Part shown: piece by piece, positions 7,000 to 63,978 of the stretch
Numbering within the stretch: position 1 is the first letter of the stretch
Layout of the letters: the number at the start of each line of letters is the position of its first letter
NCBI GenBank assembly: GCA_021081985.1
Contig: GCA_021081985.1_3639.1
DNA length: 64,000 nucleotides
DNA from: a phage
Reading direction: 5' to 3' (one strand)
Notes under the pieces: model-generated
Databases searched by the model: none
Seen by the model: only the letters and a program-made list of their open reading frames with translations
What the model was told of the DNA's origin: nothing
Translations under genes and position numbers: made by a program

Positions 7000-8715
7000 A
7001 TGCTTCACAAAGAAAGTCCATTGCTGTTTGCAGATTTTTATAAACCAAGTCACATCTCGATGTACGACAAACGTTCACAGTTTGTTCAAGACAACATGAC
7101 ACCACGCAATGCGAAACACTTTGTACACTTTGCAGATGATGACCATCGTGTAATGTTTGCTGGTCTTCAGGGATTTATCAAGTGGTTCCTGATTGACATG
7201 TTTAATAATAATTTCTTTGCTTTACCGAAAGAAAAGGCGATTCAGGATTACAAAGAGATTTGTGATTTGAGCATTGGGAAGGATGCTGTTGAAACTTGGG
7301 GTTTTGAGAGATTGCATGATCTTGGATATCTCCCAATTGAAATTAGAGCTTTGCCTGAAGGAACTCTTGTTCCTGTTCAGGTTCCTATGTTCACGATTCA
7401 GAACACGCACCCTGATTTTTACTGGCTGCCAAACTTCCTTGAGAGCGTGATCTCCTCGGAGACTTGGAAGACAATTACCACGGCAACGACTTTCTGGCAA
7501 TATCGTAAACTATCAGAACTGTGGGCAAAGAAAACATGTGATAACAACGATCACGTTCCTTTCCAGAACCATTGTTTTGCATACCGTGGTGAAGCTGGAA
7601 CACATGACGCAGCACAGAGCGAATTTGGGCAACTGATTAGCTCAATGGGCACAGATACAATTCCAGCGATTGTTTACGCAAATCGCTATTACAACATGAA
7701 AGGTCGCTTTGTTGCTGGGTCTATTCCCGCATCTGAGCATAGCGTAGCGACAACGAACATTGGTTTTATTGTTGAGCGTATCCAGCAGGAAAATCCTGAC
7801 ATGTCGCTTGCTGAAGCACGTTTTCGTGCTGAAGTTGAGTTCTTAAAGCGTTATGCAACAGAGATTTTTCCGTCAGGCTATGCTTCATACGTCGCAGACA
7901 GCTATGATTTTTGGGCAATCATTACACAAGCAGCCAAAATCCTGAAAGATGAGATTATGTCTCGTGATGGCAAGCTGGTCTTCCGACCGGACAGTGGGAT
8001 CCCAGAGCACATCATTGCTGGCTATCGTGTGTGCTCTCAGGAAGAATGGGCAACGGGACAGTGCTGTGATATGGATGCTGTGCTGTTTAAAAATGGCAAA
8101 TATGTCACTCTGTACGAGATGTCCAGAGACACTTCTTGGATGCGAGATTCGGAAGGCAACCTCGTAGATTGGAAATCTTTGACAGGTGATGAATTTACAA
8201 ATTATCTTACCAAAGAGGAGGTTAAGGGTGCTGTACAATGCTTGTGGGAAATCTTTGGTGGTAGTGTAAACTCTTTGGGTTACAAAGTTCTTGATAGCCA
8301 TGTTGGTTTAATCTACGGAGACTCTATCACAATCTCTCGTGCTAAAGAGATCTTTGAGCGCCTTGAAGAACGAGGCTTTGCTTCCAGCAACATTGTGTTT
8401 GGTGTAGGATCTTATACAACGCAATATACAACCCGTGATTCTCTTGGGATGGCTGTAAAAGCTACTGGTGCTGTGATTGATGGCAGACAAGTAATGGTTG
8501 TAAAAGAGCCTAAGACTGATCTTGGGAAGAAATCTGCGAAAGGTTTTGTTAAAGTTATTCGTGGTGATGATGGTGAGTTGAAGCTGGTAGATAATCTTGG
8601 TATTAATCAGGTATCTGACCCTGACAACGAGCTTAGAACAGTTTTTGTTAATGGTAAGCTGCTTGTGGATGAGGATCTTGAAGAAATTCGTCAAAGAGCT
8701 TTGTCACAGCTTTAG
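7000..8715 (+). CDS. nicotinamide phosphoribosyltransferase family protein
   Basis: 571 aa; N-terminus LFADFYKPSH and overall length typical of NAMPT/NadV. Confidence 0.75.
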   Translation: MLHKESPLLFADFYKPSHISMYDKRSQFVQDNMTPRNAKHFVHFADDDHRVMFAGLQGFIKWFLIDMFNNNFFALPKEKAIQDYKEICDLSIGKDAVETWGFERLHDLGYLPIEIRALPEGTLVPVQVPMFTIQNTHPDFYWLPNFLESVISSETWKTITTATTFWQYRKLSELWAKKTCDNNDHVPFQNHCFAYRGEAGTHDAAQSEFGQLISSMGTDTIPAIVYANRYYNMKGRFVAGSIPASEHSVATTNIGFIVERIQQENPDMSLAEARFRAEVEFLKRYATEIFPSGYASYVADSYDFWAIITQAAKILKDEIMSRDGKLVFRPDSGIPEHIIAGYRVCSQEEWATGQCCDMDAVLFKNGKYVTLYEMSRDTSWMRDSEGNLVDWKSLTGDEFTNYLTKEEVKGAVQCLWEIFGGSVNSLGYKVLDSHVGLIYGDSITISRAKEIFERLEERGFASSNIVFGVGSYTTQYTTRDSLGMAVKATGAVIDGRQVMVVKEPKTDLGKKSAKGFVKVIRGDDGELKLVDNLGINQVSDPDNELRTVFVNGKLLVDEDLEEIRQRALSQL

Positions 8716-11067: not shown

Positions 11068-11432
11068 AAGGCTCTGATAATATCATTATCGTTCCTTTGT
11101 TTTGAAATTTAAAACATTGCTTTTGATTAACGAAGTTTACATCATCTTGCCTCCTGGGGATTGGAGGTTAAATATTCCCCACCATGTATCGTATATGTAT
11201 GAGGATAATACAGAACATAGATGCAGCGAGGCACACGAAGATGCTTTGTTGTTTCCACTAAGTAAAAGTTCATACAATAAAGGTCAATGGTTAAATGTGA
11301 AAGATGAAACTTGAAAGTTGACTCTTGAAAGATAAAATTTCGTTTATCATCTGAAATCCTTGACACAGGTTATGGCTCACAAGATATGGTCTGTAAAGCC
11401 TCAAGGCTGTTAATCGGAAGCAATGTCTTATT

Positions 11433-11507
11433 GCTCGTATAGCTCAACGGTAGAGCACCTGCCTTGTAAGCAGGGGGTTGCAGGTTCGAAACCTGCTGCG
11501 AGCACCA
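11433..11507 (+). tRNA. tRNA-Thr (UGU)
   Basis: Acceptor GCTCGTA/TGCGAGC, D-arm GCTC..GAGC, anticodon loop CTTGTAA, T-arm GCAGGTTCGAAACCTGC, CCA. Confidence 0.8.
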
Positions 11508-11509
11508 AT

Positions 11510-11606
11510 GCTGGGTAAGCCCTTTGGCAAGGGCGAGGATTTATAATCCTGAAAATAGACGGGCTAGCCGTTGAATACATAGGTGGTTCGATTCCATCAC
11601 CCAGCC
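11510..11606 (+). ncRNA. non-canonical tRNA-like RNA
   Basis: tRNA-type acceptor (GCTGGGT/ACCCAGC), D-arm and T-arm (GGTGGTTCGATTCCATC), but the anticodon position is a closed hairpin AGGATT-tat-AATCCT followed by a second tight hairpin; about 97 nt, no CCA. Confidence 0.4.
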
Positions 11607-11807
11607 ACAAGTTTGTTTTATAGTGTATTAGCTTATATTATTCGATATAAATGCCTGATCAGCATTTGTTGTGAATGAGGCATACAATGCGTGAGAAAGC
11701 TATCGGTGCGCAACGTTGATTTCAAACGTAGTCATGCTCGTAGAGCACCAACTGTGGAAGTTGGAGGGTGGTTGAGTAACCATACACTATAAAGCATTCT
11801 TTAAAAT

Positions 11808-11892
11808 GGGCGGTGTCCCCACACAAGTCTTCTAAACTTGTACTTAAAAAGTGGGAAGGAAGTGAGAGGTTCGATTCCTCCACCGTCTACCA
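11808..11892 (+). ncRNA. non-canonical tRNA-like RNA
   Basis: 3' end TTCGATTCC...ACCGTCTACCA with a pairing 5' segment GGGCGGT, no D-arm, internal hairpin ACAAGT-cttctaa-ACTTGT. Confidence 0.3.
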
Positions 11893-11968
11893 GATTAACC
11901 CCAACTTGAGAATCGTCAGCGCGGCTCGTAAGACCCACTCTATAGGTTCTCTACCTGGGGTGCTTATT

Positions 11969-12045
11969 GCACGGTTGCCGGAATTTGGTTACGGGTCTGT
12001 CTGCAAAACGGATATATGTCGGTTCAAGTCCGACACCGTGCTCCA
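11969..12045 (+). tRNA. tRNA-Cys (GCA)
   Basis: Acceptor GCACGGT/ACCGTGC, anticodon arm TCTGT-CTGCAAA-ACGGA, T-arm GTCGGTTCAAGTCCGAC, CCA; D-stem imperfect. Confidence 0.65.
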
Positions 12046-12082
12046 AACTTTCAATTTCTTGGCAAATATGTTAAAATACCAC

Positions 12083-12111
12083 TTGACAGATATGTTTTTA
12101 TTTGATAATAT
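12083..12111 (+). promoter_or_regulatory. sigma70-like promoter
   Basis: TTGACA, 17 nt, TAATAT, followed by RBS and ATG at 12132. Confidence 0.6.
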
Positions 12112-12570: not shown

Positions 12571-12638
12571 ACTAAATCTGTACTGGCTTTGATGTGTGAC
12601 GATACCCTCCAATCGTGGTTGTTGGGTCAGTACAGTTT

Positions 12639-12714
12639 GGGAGTGTAGATCAGTTAGTAGATCGCTCGACCGATAATCGAGAGGACGTAGGGGCAGAGCC
12701 TACCACTCCCACCA
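12639..12714 (+). tRNA. tRNA-Ile (GAU)
   Basis: Acceptor GGGAGTG/CACTCCC, D-arm GATC..GATC, anticodon arm CTCGA-CCGATAA-TCGAG, CCA; position 33 is C and the T-loop is atypical. Confidence 0.6.
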
Positions 12715-13710: not shown

Positions 13711-13792
13711 ATGAGAGTAGCGTAACTTCACTGGGTGAAGGCTGGCCTCCAAAACCAGTGACTAAGAGGTTCGATTCCTCACTCTCGTGCCA
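13711..13792 (+). tRNA. tRNA-like, possibly tRNA-Trp (CCA)
   Basis: Acceptor ATGAGAG/CTCTCGT, loop CTCCAAA, T-arm GAGGTTCGATTCCTC, CCA; D-region is over-long and non-canonical. Confidence 0.4.
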
Positions 13793-13793
13793 A

Positions 13794-16284: not shown

Positions 16285-16416
16285 GAATTAAAGTGGACAC
16301 TAAGGAAGGTCGTGGCTGAGTAAACGGTAAGACACTCTCGACATGTAAAGGTTCCTTCGCCACTTTTCTCAAATAACTATAATAATAATCCAATCAATCT
16401 CCTCTCCTATGCCTAA

Positions 16417-16440
16417 CCCCGCCTCTTGCGGGGTTTTTCT
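16417..16440 (+). terminator. rho-independent terminator at end of tRNA island
   Basis: CCCCGC-ctctt-GCGGGG followed by TTTTTCTTT. Confidence 0.7.
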
Positions 16441-16486
16441 TTATGTGCTAGTCTTTACGCATCTTGTTTTGTACTTAAGGATAGCT

Positions 16487-17848
16487 AAGATGTTGCATGT
16501 TTTCAAAAAAGAAGATTTTCAAAGAGAGTATGACATTTTGTGCTCTTTTATACCAAAAGGTGTTTATGATTTATTGTCAAAGCTGGATGTTAAGATAGCT
16601 GGCGGTGCAATAACCTCTTTGTTCTCTAATAGTAAAGTCAACGATCTTGATTTGTATTTCCCATCTTGGGAAAGCCTTGAGATATTCATTGCGTACATGA
16701 TGGATAAAAGACTCTTGTCAGGGAAATATGATTTGTCTAAGAAAACAAATGGCTGGGCGTCAGATCAAAAAATAGCATTTAGGCATTTCTATAAACTTGA
16801 TCACGGTGATCCAGCATTTTCAAATTTTACAGATCCTCTTTCTATAGGTAGAGAATATGACAATGAATACGATTATTTATGTGATGAAGATGATAATTTG
16901 CCAACCATGAAAAAGGTTGGTGTGACAGATAAGAGTGTGATGTTTTACTTTGGACAAGAGCCTGTCTTTCAATGTGTGGCTGTGGATGTGTTCAAAACAA
17001 CAGAAGACATCTTTAGCAAATTTGATTTTACAATAAATATGGGTGCTTTTAACTTCAAAGATGGTGTGTGGGAATTTAATAGCAATTTCTTAAAACATAT
17101 TGCTCAAAGAGTTTTGGTTGTAAATCATAAAACTGAATACCCGATTATGTCACTTTTGAGATCTGAAAAATACAAATCTCGTGGCTATACAATTTCGAAA
17201 AAAGAGACAATGAAACTGGCTATGACCATTGCTAACCTTCAGATAGAAGGTTGGGAATCGGCAAAGTCACATCTTAGCGGGATGTACGGAATGAAACTGT
17301 CAGATATTTTTGATGAGACAAAACAGTTTTCACTTGATTCTTTGGTTGAGTGCCTAGACAGATTAGAATCTTGTTGCCAGCAGGTAGACAAAAATGTTAC
17401 CCCTGTGCAACCGTTGCCGTTTAATGATGTATCTAAAGTTAATATGTTTAATATTTTTCAAAGATTAAGAAAAGCAACAGGCAGGAAATACTTTACAAAA
17501 CTATATGGGGTTTGTCCTGCTGAAGTTTTCTATCTTATGATGCCAACAAAAGATACACATTATGTTGGGCTTTACAAAGAAGATATAGCAAATAATTTTC
17601 CCACTCTCAGACTTTATGTTGATGAGAAGAAGGCAAGAGAATATTACGAATACCTGTGTGAGTGTGGTAAGACAGATGGTTATGGATGCCTAATGTATAA
17701 ACCTGGGGCAGTTCTCTTAGATGTCTCAATAAGTGATCCATCTAAGATGCAATACGATATCATAACTGATGAGATTAATATTTATGAAAACAGAAAAACA
17801 ACATTGAAAATTGAAAACATTATTGTGTGTGATGGGGATATATCATGA
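16487..17848 (+). CDS. hypothetical protein, possible Pol-beta-type nucleotidyltransferase fold
   Basis: ORF track 16409..17848 starts inside the terminator; likely start is ATG at 16487 with RBS AAGGAT. N-terminal GGAITSLFSNSKVNDLDLYF fits the G[GS]-x9-13-DxD signature. Confidence 0.45.
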   Translation, partial: KMLHVFKKEDFQREYDILCSFIPKGVYDLLSKLDVKIAGGAITSLFSNSKVNDLDLYFPSWESLEIFIAYMMDKRLLSGKYDLSKKTNGWASDQKIAFRHFYKLDHGDPAFSNFTDPLSIGREYDNEYDYLCDEDDNLPTMKKVGVTDKSVMFYFGQEPVFQCVAVDVFKTTEDIFSKFDFTINMGAFNFKDGVWEFNSNFLKHIAQRVLVVNHKTEYPIMSLLRSEKYKSRGYTISKKETMKLAMTIANLQIEGWESAKSHLSGMYGMKLSDIFDETKQFSLDSLVECLDRLESCCQQVDKNVTPVQPLPFNDVSKVNMFNIFQRLRKATGRKYFTKLYGVCPAEVFYLMMPTKDTHYVGLYKEDIANNFPTLRLYVDEKKAREYYEYLCECGKTDGYGCLMYKPGAVLLDVSISDPSKMQYDIITDEINIYENRKTTLKIENIIVCDGDIS

Positions 17849-63184: not shown

Positions 63185-63444
63185 AGAGAGTTCGTTACGC
63201 TCTCCCGCACCATTACGTGCATAGCCACAAGATTTCTCCTGTGGGTCGGACTATTTCATCCTCCTAATGTTAAGGAGGCCTCCCGTTTCGACCGCACTTG
63301 CTGGCCTACTCTACTCGCTTTCACATTACTAGTGTGCTTTCGATAGTCTCTGAACGTTCATCCCGTAGGGATGCTTCGCTGCGGATTAGCATATTGAACT
63401 TTTACCACTTTTACGTATAAAAGTCAACTTAGCCTTCCCGTCAA
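63185..63444 (-). mobile_element. putative ORF-less group I intron in DNA polymerase gene
   Basis: About 260 nt non-coding insert between the motif B and motif C exons; contains a 38-nt core (63351-63388) nearly identical to the terminase intron. Boundaries approximate. Confidence 0.5.
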
Positions 63445-63978
63445 TTAAAGAGGTTTTCGACATGCATTACTGCATGAAGCCACAATTTGTTTATGGTAGT
63501 AGATAACCCTCCTGACACCTTGGTCGTACCATCCCCGTTTTACCAATTCCCAATGGAACAGGACTCCCATGAGGTCAAACAATGAAGCACCACCGTTTTG
63601 TTGGTAAGCATTCAGCAGAGAATGTTTAGAACGAGTCCAAATTTTACGCCCGTCCATGCCTGGAATATAGCGTCTGCCATTTGCCTCCCAGAATTTTTCC
63701 AACCACTCTCTACGCATTTTCAACCCGAAGTTACTATCCCAGAATGCGTCTATTACAGCCTGTGCTCTATTAAGGGGGATACCCAGCATTGCGGCTATCT
63801 TAGGAGCTTGTGCTCCATACATAATTCCATACGTAACCCCCTTTCCTCCAGAGCGTGTTACCTCCTTTCCTGCTGCTATTGTGTATGCTCTTGCGTTTCG
63901 TTCATGGGCATCCTCTTCCATCATGATACGTAAATACTCACCACCGTCAAACTCAAAAGCCCCTGCCGCTGCAATCAT
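63445..63978 (-). CDS. family A DNA polymerase, upstream part containing motif B (ORF-track fragment; N-terminal region beyond first ATG and window edge not assessed)
   Basis: TRSGGKGVTYGIMYGAQAPK matches Pol A motif B (R..K..YG..YG). Confidence 0.7.
   Translation of the reverse strand: MIAAAGAFEFDGGEYLRIMMEEDAHERNARAYTIAAGKEVTRSGGKGVTYGIMYGAQAPKIAAMLGIPLNRAQAVIDAFWDSNFGLKMRREWLEKFWEANGRRYIPGMDGRKIWTRSKHSLLNAYQQNGGASLFDLMGVLFHWELVKRGWYDQGVRRVIYYHKQIVASCSNACRKPL

What the first reader, a model, noticed from the sequence alone, without database searches (positions are those of the whole stretch)
11510..11892. tRNA-like RNAs with collapsed or missing anticodon arms
Two elements have clear tRNA-type acceptor and T arms, but the anticodon position is a closed hairpin (AGGATT-tat-AATCCT) in one and the D-arm is absent in the other. 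Between them is a truncated copy of the tRNA-Thr 5' region (GCTCGTA...GAGCACC at about 11735). These could be decaying tRNA genes, or stable processed RNAs of other function such as nuclease decoys or RNase P-processed regulators.
Basis: seen in the sequence. Interest (0 to 1): 0.6.

Follow-up and report, generated by a model that had tools for sequence, protein, structure and literature searches.

The report
Non-cloverleaf phage tRNA-Arg plus tRNA mimics
This stretch of a phage tRNA operon holds three conserved tRNA-derived RNA genes rather than decaying tRNAs, and one belongs to a widespread, unannotated phage family of arginine tRNAs that lack the usual D-arm, a shape not reported for tRNAs used by bacterial ribosomes.

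Summary
The window is an rV5-like phage (Vequintavirinae, 98.5% identical to Av-05). Positions 11510-11892 lie between tRNA-Thr and tRNA-Cys and hold three separate structured RNAs. None is a decaying gene.

- **E1 (11510-11609):** a five-helix tRNA-like RNA found in five genera of Vequintavirinae. Its acceptor, D, T and "anticodon" stems covary, and so does the D-loop/T-loop elbow pair (G:C to U:A). The "anticodon" loop is 5-7 nt and not conserved, so E1 is probably a non-decoding tRNA mimic. Its function is unknown.
- **M (11616-11794):** a 179-nt structured RNA shared with Seunavirus. The "truncated tRNA-Thr" motif is part of it.
- **E2 (11808-11892):** the main result. It has a normal anticodon loop, CUUCUAA (UCU, arginine AGA), but no D-arm. 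A helix between the 5' connector and the variable region, plus a 3-bp pseudoknot helix, takes the D-arm's place. The structure is 99% paired across 53 distinct homologues from T5-like, T4-like and other phages. Anticodons are UCU or CCU in 55 of 56 recovered sequences; the 56th is an unrelated archaeal T-arm match. E2 sits exactly where a sister phage has a canonical tRNA-Arg(UCU). AGA is the phage's commonest arginine codon.

E2 is most likely a functional, non-cloverleaf tRNA-Arg. No literature on it was found.

The parts
11311..11338 (+). Sigma-70-like promoter candidate (TTGAAA-16-TAAAAT) upstream of tRNA-Thr. No terminator-like site follows before the next promoter-like site at 12083, so Thr, E1, M, E2 and Cys are probably one transcript.
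   Evidence: This is a consensus match only; co-transcription is inferred.
11433..11507 (+). Canonical tRNA-Thr(UGU). Its CCA end lies 2 nt upstream of E1.
   Evidence: 73.6 bits.
11510..11609 (+). E1: a five-helix tRNA-like RNA. Acceptor 11510-16/11599-605; D-arm 11519-34; short hairpin in the anticodon position 11536-50; conserved linker GAAAATAG 11551-58; hypervariable hairpin 11559-71; conserved linker TGAATACATA 11572-81; T-arm 11582-98. No CCA is encoded (the element ends CACA).
   Evidence: Alignment A2 covers 14 sequences from 5 genera. In it 99.3% of cells are paired and 10 of 22 pairs show double changes, including the tertiary pair 11527:11589 (G:C x9, U:A x5). All homologues fold the same way.
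11536..11550 (+). E1 hairpin occupying the anticodon-arm position. The stem covaries. The loop is 5 nt here, 6 nt in Seunavirus and Mydovirus, and 7 nt in the Erwinia phages, with no conserved triplet.
11616..11794 (+). M: a 179-nt structured RNA closed by a 12-bp stem (11617-28/11782-93). It has a tRNA-like outline: a GCTC/GAGC 'D-stem' enclosing about 110 nt with three hairpins, a closed anticodon-like hairpin, and a GAGU-tetraloop hairpin in the T position. It contains the 'truncated tRNA-Thr' motif at 11736-49.
   Evidence: 16 of 49 pairs compensatory between Avunavirus and Seunavirus; the many G-U pairs indicate the + strand. No Rfam family matches.
11808..11892 (+). E2: D-armless tRNA-Arg(UCU). 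Acceptor 11808-15/11881-88 (8 bp including G8-C); helix a 11818-22/11851-55; anticodon stem 11823-28/11836-41; loop 11829-35; helix b (pseudoknot) 11842-44/11861-63; A-run 11846-50; AAGGA 11856-60; T-stem 11866-69/11877-80; T-loop 11870-76; discriminator A 11889; CCA 11890-92.
   Evidence: Covariance model R1 scores it 104.5 bits.
11831..11833 (+). E2 anticodon TCT (reads AGA) within the loop CTTCTAA.
   Evidence: With the anticodon left free in the search, 55 of 56 distinct sequences are family members carrying UCU (50) or CCU (5); the 56th is an unrelated archaeal T-arm match.
11851..11860 (+). GTGGG plus AAGGA. This is the 3' strand of helix a followed by an invariant GGA. It is proposed to stand in for the D-stem strand and the D-loop bases G18, G19 and A20, relocated to the variable region.
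   Evidence: Helix a covaries at 3 of 5 pairs. GGA is invariant in A1, where it was not part of the search pattern, and it is kept in the divergent members L021 and KB57. The G18/G19/A20 role is inferred.
11893..11968 (+). A 76-nt structured spacer between E2 and tRNA-Cys. It is conserved in sister phage 18-1-2.
   Evidence: (z -2.96). Not studied further.
11969..12045 (+). Canonical tRNA-Cys(GCA), the downstream boundary of the region.

Best explanation
The interval holds three independent, selectively maintained tRNA-derived RNA genes. They are probably co-transcribed with tRNA-Thr and tRNA-Cys and released by the host tRNA-processing enzymes.

(1) E2 is a working arginine tRNA that reads AGA, built on a non-cloverleaf fold. 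The 12-bp acceptor/T-domain and a normal anticodon loop are kept. The D-arm is missing. In its place, the 5' connector (CCCAC) pairs with GUGGG in the variable region, forming a helix that stacks directly on a 6-bp anticodon stem. A second 3-bp helix crosses the first as a pseudoknot. The invariant GGA that follows GUGGG most likely supplies the G18/G19 contacts to the T-loop and the A20 that ArgRS needs. E2 belongs to a phage-specific family (anticodons UCU and CCU only) that moves between unrelated phages as a gene cassette.

(2) E1 is a tRNA-shaped RNA with a preserved L-shaped elbow but no anticodon. It most likely acts as a non-decoding tRNA mimic that is processed like a tRNA and binds some tRNA-recognising factor.

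(3) M is a larger tRNA-derived structured RNA of unknown role.

Shown: conservation, secondary structures, anticodon restriction, and positional replacement of a canonical tRNA-Arg. Inferred: processing, aminoacylation, use on the ribosome, the G18/G19/A20 mimicry, and any anti-defence benefit.
For: E2:
- About 310 phage records match at 76-88% identity, in Demerecviridae, Straboviridae, Vequintavirinae and unclassified phages. None of the roughly 100 records listed annotates it as a tRNA.
- RNAalifold predicts the nested structure independently.
- The full structure with the pseudoknot is 99.7% paired in 24 sequences and 99.1% in 53 sequences. 17 of 26 pairs show double changes. The covariation score is 0.57, against 0.16 in shuffles and at most 0.07 with partners slid.
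- Scans that left the anticodon free gave UCU in 50 and CCU in 5 of 56 distinct sequences; the 56th is an unrelated archaeal T-arm match. Tandem UCU and CCU paralogues occur in Aeromonas phage AhSzw-1.
- Sister phage 18-1-2 has a canonical tRNA-Arg(UCU) in exactly this slot, with flanks 96-97% identical.
- Vibrio phage D260 has 17 canonical tRNAs for 16 amino acids but no Arg other than its E2 homologue. Acinetobacter phage KARL-1 likewise has no other Arg tRNA.
- AGA makes up 39.8% of Arg codons in the window's long ORFs.
- C35, U36, a discriminator of A, G or U, and an encoded CCA all fit the bacterial Arg identity set (PMC9976931).
- The E. coli ribosome, EF-Tu and a synthetase accept an engineered D-armless tRNA without adaptation (PMC11551756).
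- Only 1 of about 185,000 bacterial species genomes carries the motif.

E1: including the covarying elbow pair.

M.
Against: - There are no expression, processing, aminoacylation or translation data for any of the three elements.
- A decoy for a nuclease or enzyme specific for tRNA-Arg(UCU) would also conserve the anticodon loop.
- The invariance of the T-arm, and the invariance of GGA in the later scans, is partly imposed by the search patterns used.
- The 8/4 versus 7/5 reading of the acceptor and T stems cannot be settled, because G8 and its partner never vary.
- Helix b is only 3 bp.
- The sequences are related, so cell counts overstate the number of independent events.
- The tRNA complements were checked in loci of 1-30 kb, not in whole genomes.
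- E1's function is essentially a guess. In rV5 and in this window its loop can be drawn as 7 nt (UUU or UAU), and some GenBank records call it tRNA-Lys or a suppressor.
Confidence: 0.7

Rival explanations
1. E2 is a tRNA-Arg(UCU) mimic that is not used in translation. It would act as a decoy or sponge for a host factor that recognises the Arg-UCU anticodon stem-loop, such as an anticodon nuclease, a colicin-D-like toxin or a modification enzyme.
For: The anticodon loop is invariant while the body is remodelled. Phage tRNAs are known counter-measures to tRNA-cleaving defences (PMC10264068, PMC11464382, PMC11555353).
Against: E2 takes the place of the canonical tRNA-Arg(UCU) rather than adding to it. 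It is the only Arg tRNA found in the D260 and KARL-1 tRNA regions. AGA is the phage's main Arg codon. The encoded CCA, the discriminator and the GGA are what a chargeable tRNA needs. A CCU paralogue fits codon coverage better than a decoy role.
Confidence: 0.17
2. The elements are decaying tRNA pseudogenes or chance tRNA-like folds.
For: ARAGORN calls neither element. Rfam scores are marginal or below threshold.
Against: Compensatory changes occur in every testable helix of E1, M and E2, including a tertiary pair in E1. E2 is conserved across unrelated phage families at 80-108 bits with its own model, while canonical tRNAs score 25 bits or less.
Confidence: 0.02
3. E1 is a genuine decoding tRNA with a long variable arm. 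Its anticodon would differ by genus: UAU (Ile) here, UUU (Lys) in rV5, UCA (suppressor) in the Erwinia phages. Several GenBank records annotate it this way.
For: Rfam's tRNA model gives 33.1 bits with a 7-nt loop drawn. Relatives carry the annotations tRNA-Lys, tRNA-OTHER and tRNA-TERM. ATA is a frequent codon, at 17.4 per 1000.
Against: A 7-nt loop requires opening two A-U pairs of a stem that covaries as 5 bp. The Seunavirus and Mydovirus copies have 6-nt loops. The triplet, the discriminator base (C, A or U) and the 3:70 pair all vary without any accompanying change of identity elements. The most conserved parts are the two single-stranded linkers that flank the extra arm, not the loop.
Confidence: 0.12
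4. E1 and M are processing or punctuation scaffolds only. They would be tRNA-shaped signals that direct RNase P and 3' processing of the polycistronic transcript, with no function in trans.
For: They are packed tightly between tRNAs with 2-13 nt spacers. There is a precedent in T4, where stable RNAs lie in the tRNA cluster.
Against: The neighbouring tRNAs already carry their own processing signals. The near-complete conservation of E1's single-stranded linkers (the AATACATAGG core is invariant) and of its elbow pair across five genera suggests a specific partner.
Confidence: 0.2

Closest known systems
[quoted passage not shown]
   Same: There is no D-arm. A short connector lies between the acceptor and a lengthened anticodon helix. 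The T-arm is retained. The anticodon reads AGN codons. These are functional in translation (PMC7609411, PMC4013460).
   Different: They are organellar and depend on co-evolved factors. They carry serine, not arginine. E2 is encoded by phages of bacteria. It keeps a full canonical T-loop, has a covarying helix between the connector and the variable region plus a pseudoknot helix, and has an invariant GGA.
8/4 and 9/3 'allo-tRNAs', and the 8/4 tRNA-Ser and tRNA-His of phages (Mukai et al. 2017, PMC5389517)
   Same: These are non-canonical tRNAs found in bacteria and phages. They have an 8-bp acceptor with a 4-bp T-stem and a long extra arm, and ordinary tRNA finders miss them.
   Different: Allo-tRNAs keep a D-arm and mostly carry Ser identity with many anticodons. 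E2 has no D-arm and carries only UCU or CCU. Its 8/4 reading is unproven.
Selenocysteine tRNA (Rfam RF01852)
   Same: This is the only Rfam model that aligns E2. It shares the 6-bp anticodon stem, the long extra arm and the 4-bp T-stem. E1 can also be drawn with a Sec-like D-arm of 6 bp with a 4-nt loop.
   Different: E2 scores 29.6 bits against a cut-off of 47. It has no UCA anticodon and no D-arm.
Phage T4 stable RNAs species 1 and 2 (rnaC, rnaD)
   Same: They are small stable RNAs encoded inside a phage tRNA cluster. rnaC ends in a canonical T-arm and an acceptor-like stem. The records give no function for them. This is the best analogue for E1 and M.
   Different: No sequence or model similarity was found: the E1 model hits only T4 tRNA-Thr and tRNA-Leu, at 25 bits or less. 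rnaC has no D-arm or elbow covariation evidence here. The architecture differs.
Plant-virus tRNA-like structures (TYMV and BMV TLS)
   Same: They are viral RNAs that use a pseudoknot to rebuild part of a tRNA shape, and synthetases charge them (my own knowledge; mentioned in PMC9976931).
   Different: They sit at the 3' ends of RNA genomes. The pseudoknot builds the acceptor stem rather than the core. They are not adaptors in decoding.
Engineered D-armless 'mini HisT' in E. coli (PMC11551756)
   Same: It shows that a bacterial ribosome, EF-Tu and a synthetase accept a D-armless tRNA, and that stability against degradation was the limiting factor.
   Different: It is artificial. E2 is natural and adds helices a and b, which may provide that stability.

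Membership tests
Canonical tRNA (Rfam RF00005) | Score at or above the curated cut-off of 29 bits | tested here: inconclusive
   E1 scores 33.1 bits and passes narrowly. E2 gets no RF00005 hit even at E<=10.
Canonical tRNA (Rfam RF00005) | D-arm between the acceptor and anticodon arms | tested here: not met
   E2 has only 8 nt there (11816-11823). E1 does have a covarying D-arm.
Canonical tRNA (Rfam RF00005) | 7-nt anticodon loop with a conserved anticodon across orthologues | tested here: inconclusive
   Met by E2: loop CUUCUAA, with NCU in all 55 family members. Not met by E1: the loop is 5-7 nt with no conserved triplet.
Canonical tRNA (Rfam RF00005) | T-arm with a TTCGAnT loop, and a D-loop/T-loop elbow | tested here: met
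   E1: the T-arm covaries, and G19:C56 changes to U:A in 5 of 14 sequences. E2: the T-loop TTCGATT is present. The elbow partner is inferred to be the invariant GG at 11858-59.
tRNA-Arg (bacterial identity set: A20, C35, U/G36, A/G/U73) | C35, U36 and the discriminator base | tested here: met
   Compared with the identity table in PMC9976931 using alignments A1 and A4.
tRNA-Arg (bacterial identity set: A20, C35, U/G36, A/G/U73) | A20 in the D-loop, and actual charging by ArgRS | not testable with these tools
   An invariant A follows the invariant GG (11860), but whether it is equivalent to A20 is a structural inference. An aminoacylation assay is needed.
tRNA-Sec (RF01852) | Score of at least 47 bits, and a UCA anticodon | tested here: not met
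   29.6 bits; the anticodon is UCU.
8/4 allo-tRNA | 8-bp acceptor with a 4-bp T-stem | tested here: inconclusive
   G8 and its partner C are paired in 51 of 51 sequences but never vary, so covariation cannot test the pair. The divergent KB57 variant reads as 7/5.
8/4 allo-tRNA | D-arm present, with Ser-type identity and diverse anticodons | tested here: not met
   E2 has no D-arm and only the anticodons UCU and CCU.
D-armless mitochondrial tRNA | Lacks a D-arm yet serves as an adaptor | tested here: inconclusive
   Absence of the D-arm is shown. Adaptor function is inferred from synteny, codon usage and identity elements. The origin is a phage, not an organelle.
T4 rnaC/rnaD stable RNAs | Sequence or structure homology to rnaC or rnaD | tested here: not met
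   Models R1 and R2, searched over the T4 locus L056, hit only canonical T4 tRNAs at 25 bits or less.
tmRNA | tRNA-like domain plus a tag reading frame | tested here: not met
   ARAGORN finds no tmRNA, and Rfam gives no hit.

The most novel reading that the evidence does not exclude
E2 represents the first natural family of non-cloverleaf elongator tRNAs used by bacterial ribosomes. In it the D-arm is deleted. A D-stem and D-loop equivalent (helix a plus GGA) is rebuilt from the variable region and locked by a pseudoknot. The gene spreads horizontally among unrelated phages as an AGR-decoding cassette. This could be because the remodelled core escapes host factors that recognise or destroy canonical tRNA-Arg. 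E1 and M would then be further products of the same pressure to diversify tRNA shape.
Probability: 0.5. Interest if true: 0.9.

Novelty: new variant of a known kind. Interest (0 to 1): 0.8.

Why it matters
[quoted passage not shown] A natural D-armless tRNA family with a pseudoknotted core, working with bacterial ArgRS, EF-Tu and ribosomes, would be a counter-example.

- It would define the minimum that the bacterial translation machinery needs from the tRNA core.
- It would give synthetic biologists a ready-made orthogonal scaffold.
- It exposes a blind spot in annotation. The gene is unannotated in the roughly 100 phage records listed out of about 310 matches, so phage tRNA repertoires and codon-compensation analyses are systematically short of an Arg tRNA.
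- If the remodelled shape evades tRNA-targeting immunity, it adds a structural strategy to the known strategy of anticodon-loop mutations.
- E1 gives a tractable tRNA mimic, conserved across five Vequintavirinae genera, with which to search for a partner.

Tried and rejected
- **Rfam, at permissive thresholds, over the region.** Only the tRNA and tRNA-Sec models hit; nothing matches M.
- **Search for targets complementary to E1's conserved linker** (CCTATGTATT, up to 1 mismatch). There were 3 hits against 4.8 expected, so there is no sign of antisense targets in the window.
- **PHROGs and Pfam on the ORFs within and flanking the tRNA cluster,** looking for tRNA-related enzymes. Most are of unknown function. 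ORF 16409-17848 gives only a weak nucleotidyltransferase PHROG hit with no Pfam support.
- **E1 model searched in T5-like and T4-like tRNA arrays.** No homologues were found outside Vequintavirinae.
- **Relation to T4 rnaC/rnaD.** No similarity was found.
- **Six literature searches** for D-armless, non-canonical or tRNA-like phage RNAs. Nothing describes E1, M or E2.
- **A link to Schlafen nucleases that target type II tRNAs.** The paper gave no support.
- **E1 as a tRNA-Gly derivative.** G1:C72, C2:G71 and U73 are present, and many Seunavirus loops contain UCC or GCC. This is suggestive but inconsistent across genera, so it was not pursued.
- **A cloverleaf for E2 with a D-arm.** This is impossible, because the 5' connector is too short.
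Full report
**Context.** The window is a Vequintavirinae (rV5-like) phage of the genus Avunavirus. Positions 11300-12100 are 98.5% identical to Escherichia phage Av-05 and 92.7% identical to phage 18-1-2 and its relatives. A tRNA cluster runs on the + strand from about 9.6 to 16 kb. The finding lies between tRNA-Thr(UGU) at 11433-11507 and tRNA-Cys(GCA) at 11969-12045. A promoter-like site sits at 11311-11338. No terminator-like site follows before the next promoter-like site at 12083, so the whole stretch is probably one transcript. That is an inference. In related genera the same slot reads Thr-(Ile or Arg)-E1-M-Leu-Arg(UCU)-Cys.

**Checking the observation.** ARAGORN calls nothing in 11510-11892.
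- Rfam's tRNA model scores 11510-11606 at 33.1 bits, against a cut-off of 29.
- The tRNA-Sec model scores 11807-11889 at 29.6 bits, against a cut-off of 47.
- The hairpin AGGATT-TAT-AATCCT is at 11536-11550.
- The second element has no room for a D-arm.
- GCTCGTAGAGCACC is at 11736-11749.

The title does not fit the second element, which has a full anticodon arm.

**Element E1 (11510-11609).** blastn finds it in 185 phage records. All those inspected are Vequintavirinae: Avunavirus, Vequintavirus, Seunavirus, Mydovirus and Henunavirus. The records annotate it inconsistently, as nothing, tRNA-OTHER, tRNA-Lys or tRNA-TERM.

I aligned 14 distinct sequences (A2). Each folds on its own into the same five-helix shape: acceptor, D-arm, a short hairpin, a variable hairpin and a T-arm. 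On the alignment:
- 99.3% of cells are paired.
- 10 of 22 pairs show changes on both sides.
- The covariation score is 0.43, against 0.16 in shuffles and at most 0.10 with partners slid.

The most telling pair is tertiary. The D-loop reads TTTGGCAA wherever the T-loop reads TTCGATT, and TTTGTCAA wherever the T-loop reads TTAGATT. That is G:C in 9 sequences, U:A in 5, and no exceptions. This is the G19:C56 elbow pair of the tRNA L-shape.

The hairpin in the anticodon position has a covarying 5-bp stem, but its loop differs between genera:

| Group | Loop |
|---|---|
| This window (Avunavirus) | UUAUA |
| rV5 (Vequintavirus) | UUUUA |
| Seunavirus, Mydovirus | CAUCCA, CAGCCA, CCUCCA, CCUCAA |
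| Erwinia phages (Henunavirus) | CAUCAAA |

The discriminator base varies (C, A or U). CCA is encoded only in some genera. The best-conserved parts are the two single-stranded linkers, GAAAAUAG and (U/A)(G/A)AAUACAUA, which flank a hypervariable hairpin.

I conclude that E1 is a selectively maintained tRNA-shaped RNA that does not decode. Its function is not shown. The window contains no excess of sites complementary to the conserved linker. A covariance model of E1 finds nothing comparable in T4-like or T5-like arrays.

**Element M (11616-11794).** The 200 nt between E1 and E2 fold well below shuffled controls (z -4.6). By blastn, close copies exist only in Avunavirus. A motif search recovered clear homologues in Seunavirus: 4MG, NINP13076, FENT2, PVP-SE1 and GAP31. 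RNAalifold on seven sequences gives a consensus structure with these parts:
- a long closing stem;
- a GCUC/GAGC stem enclosing about 110 nt with three hairpins, one carrying the conserved loop CUGAUCA;
- a closed hairpin in the anticodon position;
- a GAGU-tetraloop hairpin in the T position.

16 of 49 pairs are kept through double changes. The many G-U pairs indicate that the + strand is the folded one. The "truncated tRNA-Thr" motif is the 3' half of the GCUC/GAGC stem. It reads GGTCGTAGAGCGCC in Seunavirus, and the tRNA-Thr of phage 4MG has a different sequence. It is therefore part of a conserved tRNA-derived RNA and not a recent fragment. The comparison has only two clades, so the evidence for M is shallower than for E1 or E2.

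**Element E2 (11808-11892): distribution.** E2 is not a relic peculiar to Av-05. blastn finds about 310 records covering at least 80% of it, at 76-88% identity. None of the roughly 100 records listed annotates it as a tRNA. The carriers include:
- T5-like Vibrio phages;
- Aeromonas phages AhSzw-1 (Demerecviridae) and Aszh-1 (Straboviridae);
- Salmonella phage Arash;
- Acinetobacter phages KARL-1 and Stupor (Straboviridae) and B9;
- Vibrio phage GRLPWR.

Pattern scans of IMG/VR and of metagenomes added more copies. A scan of one genome for each of about 185,000 bacterial and archaeal species found a single bacterial copy, probably in a prophage, plus one unrelated archaeal T-arm match. The family is effectively phage-specific.

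**Element E2: structure.** RNAalifold on 24 distinct sequences independently returns four nested helices:
- an 8-bp acceptor;
- a 5-bp helix between the 5' connector (CCCAC) and GUGGG, which lies 3' of the anticodon arm;
- a 6-bp anticodon stem;
- a 4-bp T-stem.

By eye I added a 3-bp helix b, between the three bases after the anticodon stem and the three bases before the T-arm. It crosses the connector helix as a pseudoknot.

| Measure | 24 sequences | 53 distinct sequences, model-aligned |
|---|---|---|
| Cells paired | 99.7% | 99.1% |
| Pairs with double changes | 15 of 26 | 17 of 26 |
| Covariation score | 0.63 | 0.57 |
| Shuffled controls | 0.18 | 0.16 |
| Partners slid | below 0.09 | at most 0.07 |

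Helix b was not in the model, so the larger alignment is not biased towards it. In that alignment the connector helix covaries at 3 of 5 pairs and helix b at 2 of 3. The family model scores members at 80-108 bits (the window copy scores 104.5). Canonical tRNAs score 25 bits or less.

**Element E2: evidence that it decodes.**
1. The loop is CUUCUAA. When the anticodon was left unspecified in the search pattern, 56 distinct sequences came back. Of these, 50 carry UCU, 5 carry CCU, and the last is the unrelated archaeal hit. Both anticodons read AGR arginine codons. AhSzw-1 carries UCU and CCU paralogues in tandem.
2. In sister phage 18-1-2 the flanks are 96-97% identical to the window, and a canonical 76-nt tRNA-Arg(UCU) occupies exactly the E2 slot. 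The replacement runs from about 6 nt upstream of the gene to its CCA.
3. A 30-kb region of Vibrio phage D260 has 17 canonical tRNAs for 16 amino acids and no Arg apart from its E2 homologue. The KARL-1 array likewise has no other Arg. Among the loci examined, the only canonical tRNA-Arg(UCU) genes ARAGORN calls lie beside a D-armless CCU copy, not a D-armless UCU copy.
4. AGA is the commonest Arg codon in the window's long ORFs: 39.8% of Arg codons, or 15.5 per 1000. From my own knowledge, AGA is rare in E. coli.
5. C35, U36, the discriminator (A, G or U) and the encoded CCA fit the bacterial arginine identity set.
6. The strongest ArgRS determinant, A20, normally follows G18 and G19 in the D-loop. 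In E2 an invariant GGA follows the GUGGG strand. GGA was not part of the first search pattern, yet it is invariant in that set. It is also kept in the divergent members L021 and KB57.

From point 6 I propose that helix a plus AAGGA is a D-stem strand and D-loop relocated into the variable region. This would preserve the stacking on the anticodon stem, the elbow contacts and A20. That proposal is an inference.

Edelmann et al. 2024 showed that the E. coli ribosome, EF-Tu and a synthetase accept an engineered D-armless tRNA as it is, and that degradation was the limiting factor. This makes function plausible, and suggests that helices a and b provide stability.

Klebsiella phage KB57 has a divergent D-armless UCU element (33.6 bits) in the syntenic Leu--Cys slot. 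The architecture is therefore broader than the core family.

**Comparison with what is known.**
- Six full-text searches found no description of D-armless or pseudoknotted phage tRNAs.
- A 2020 review of non-canonical tRNAs does not mention phages.
- Mukai et al. reported 8/4 tRNA-Ser and tRNA-His in phages, but those have D-arms.
- The closest functional analogue is the D-armless mitochondrial tRNA-Ser(AGN).
- The closest analogues for E1 and M are the T4 stable RNAs rnaC and rnaD, to which no homology was found.

**Caveats.**
- There are no expression or biochemical data for any of the three elements.
- The pattern-based collection fixes the T-arm, and in the later scans also the GGA.
- The sequences are related, so counts are not independent events.
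- The 8/4 versus 7/5 reading is unresolved.
- The tRNA complements were checked in loci, not in whole genomes.
- A decoy role for E2 is not excluded.
- E1's mechanism is a guess.

**Verdict.** The "decay" interpretation is wrong. The region contains a likely functional tRNA-Arg with a new architecture, from a widespread unannotated phage family, and two conserved tRNA-derived RNAs of unknown function.

Noticed in passing
window 13712-13793 (+): Another tRNA-like gene that ARAGORN misses. The tRNA-Sec model scores it 34.4 bits, below its cut-off, and the E2 model scores it 24.9 bits. By eye it has an 8-bp acceptor, a 4-bp T-stem, a 6-bp D-stem with a tiny loop, and a loop containing CUCCAAA (CCA, tryptophan?) closed by a C-A mismatch. 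It ends GCCA.
   Followed up: partly
window 12639-12711 (+): A tRNA with anticodon GAU (Ile), found by Rfam (53.4 bits) but not by ARAGORN. Its T-loop reads GGCAGAG instead of TTCGAnT. Relatives such as FENT2 annotate a tRNA-Ile(GAT) (tRNAscan score 73.1) just after tRNA-Tyr.
   Followed up: no
window 12572-12638 and 11893-11968 (+): Two further structured spacers inside the tRNA operon (fold z -2.35 and -2.96). The second is conserved in phage 18-1-2.
   Followed up: no
window 63228-63502 (-): A group I catalytic intron, full-length match at 78.7 bits.
   Followed up: no
L007 (PVP-SE1) about 925-1085; L003 (FENT2) about 970-1150; L008 (KB57) about 850-1000; L006 (Erwinia pEp_SNUABM_01) about 910-1090: Between E1 and the next gene, other Vequintavirinae carry additional 150-190-nt inserts, each closed by a long stem of 10-15 bp. 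The inserts differ between genera. They look like a class of structured RNAs embedded in tRNA arrays, with unknown function.
   Followed up: no
L002 (NINP13076) about 1500-1715; L007 (PVP-SE1) from about 1283: Compared with 4MG, the tRNA-Leu(UAA) gene appears to be interrupted after GAGGCAT. In NINP13076 the insertion is about 150 nt and carries a small annotated ORF, so it may be an intron-like insertion in a phage tRNA. In PVP-SE1 only the start of the divergence was seen.
   Followed up: no
L026 2700-2801 (-), a T4-like IMG/VR contig: A 102-nt tRNA-like gene that ARAGORN misses. It has an 8-bp acceptor, a long extra arm and the loop CUUAUAC (UAU). It lies near the D-armless UCU and CCU genes in the same array.
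   Followed up: partly
L012 (Aeromonas phage AhSzw-1) 410-497 and 504-588: Tandem D-armless tRNA-Arg(CCU) and tRNA-Arg(UCU) genes, 6 nt apart.
   Followed up: yes
window 16409-17848 (+) and 7000-8715 (+): The ORF just downstream of the tRNA cluster gives a weak nucleotidyltransferase PHROG hit (E 4.7e-5) with no Pfam match. It may be relevant to CCA addition, because E1 encodes no CCA. The ORF at 7000-8715 is a nicotinamide phosphoribosyltransferase.
   Followed up: partly
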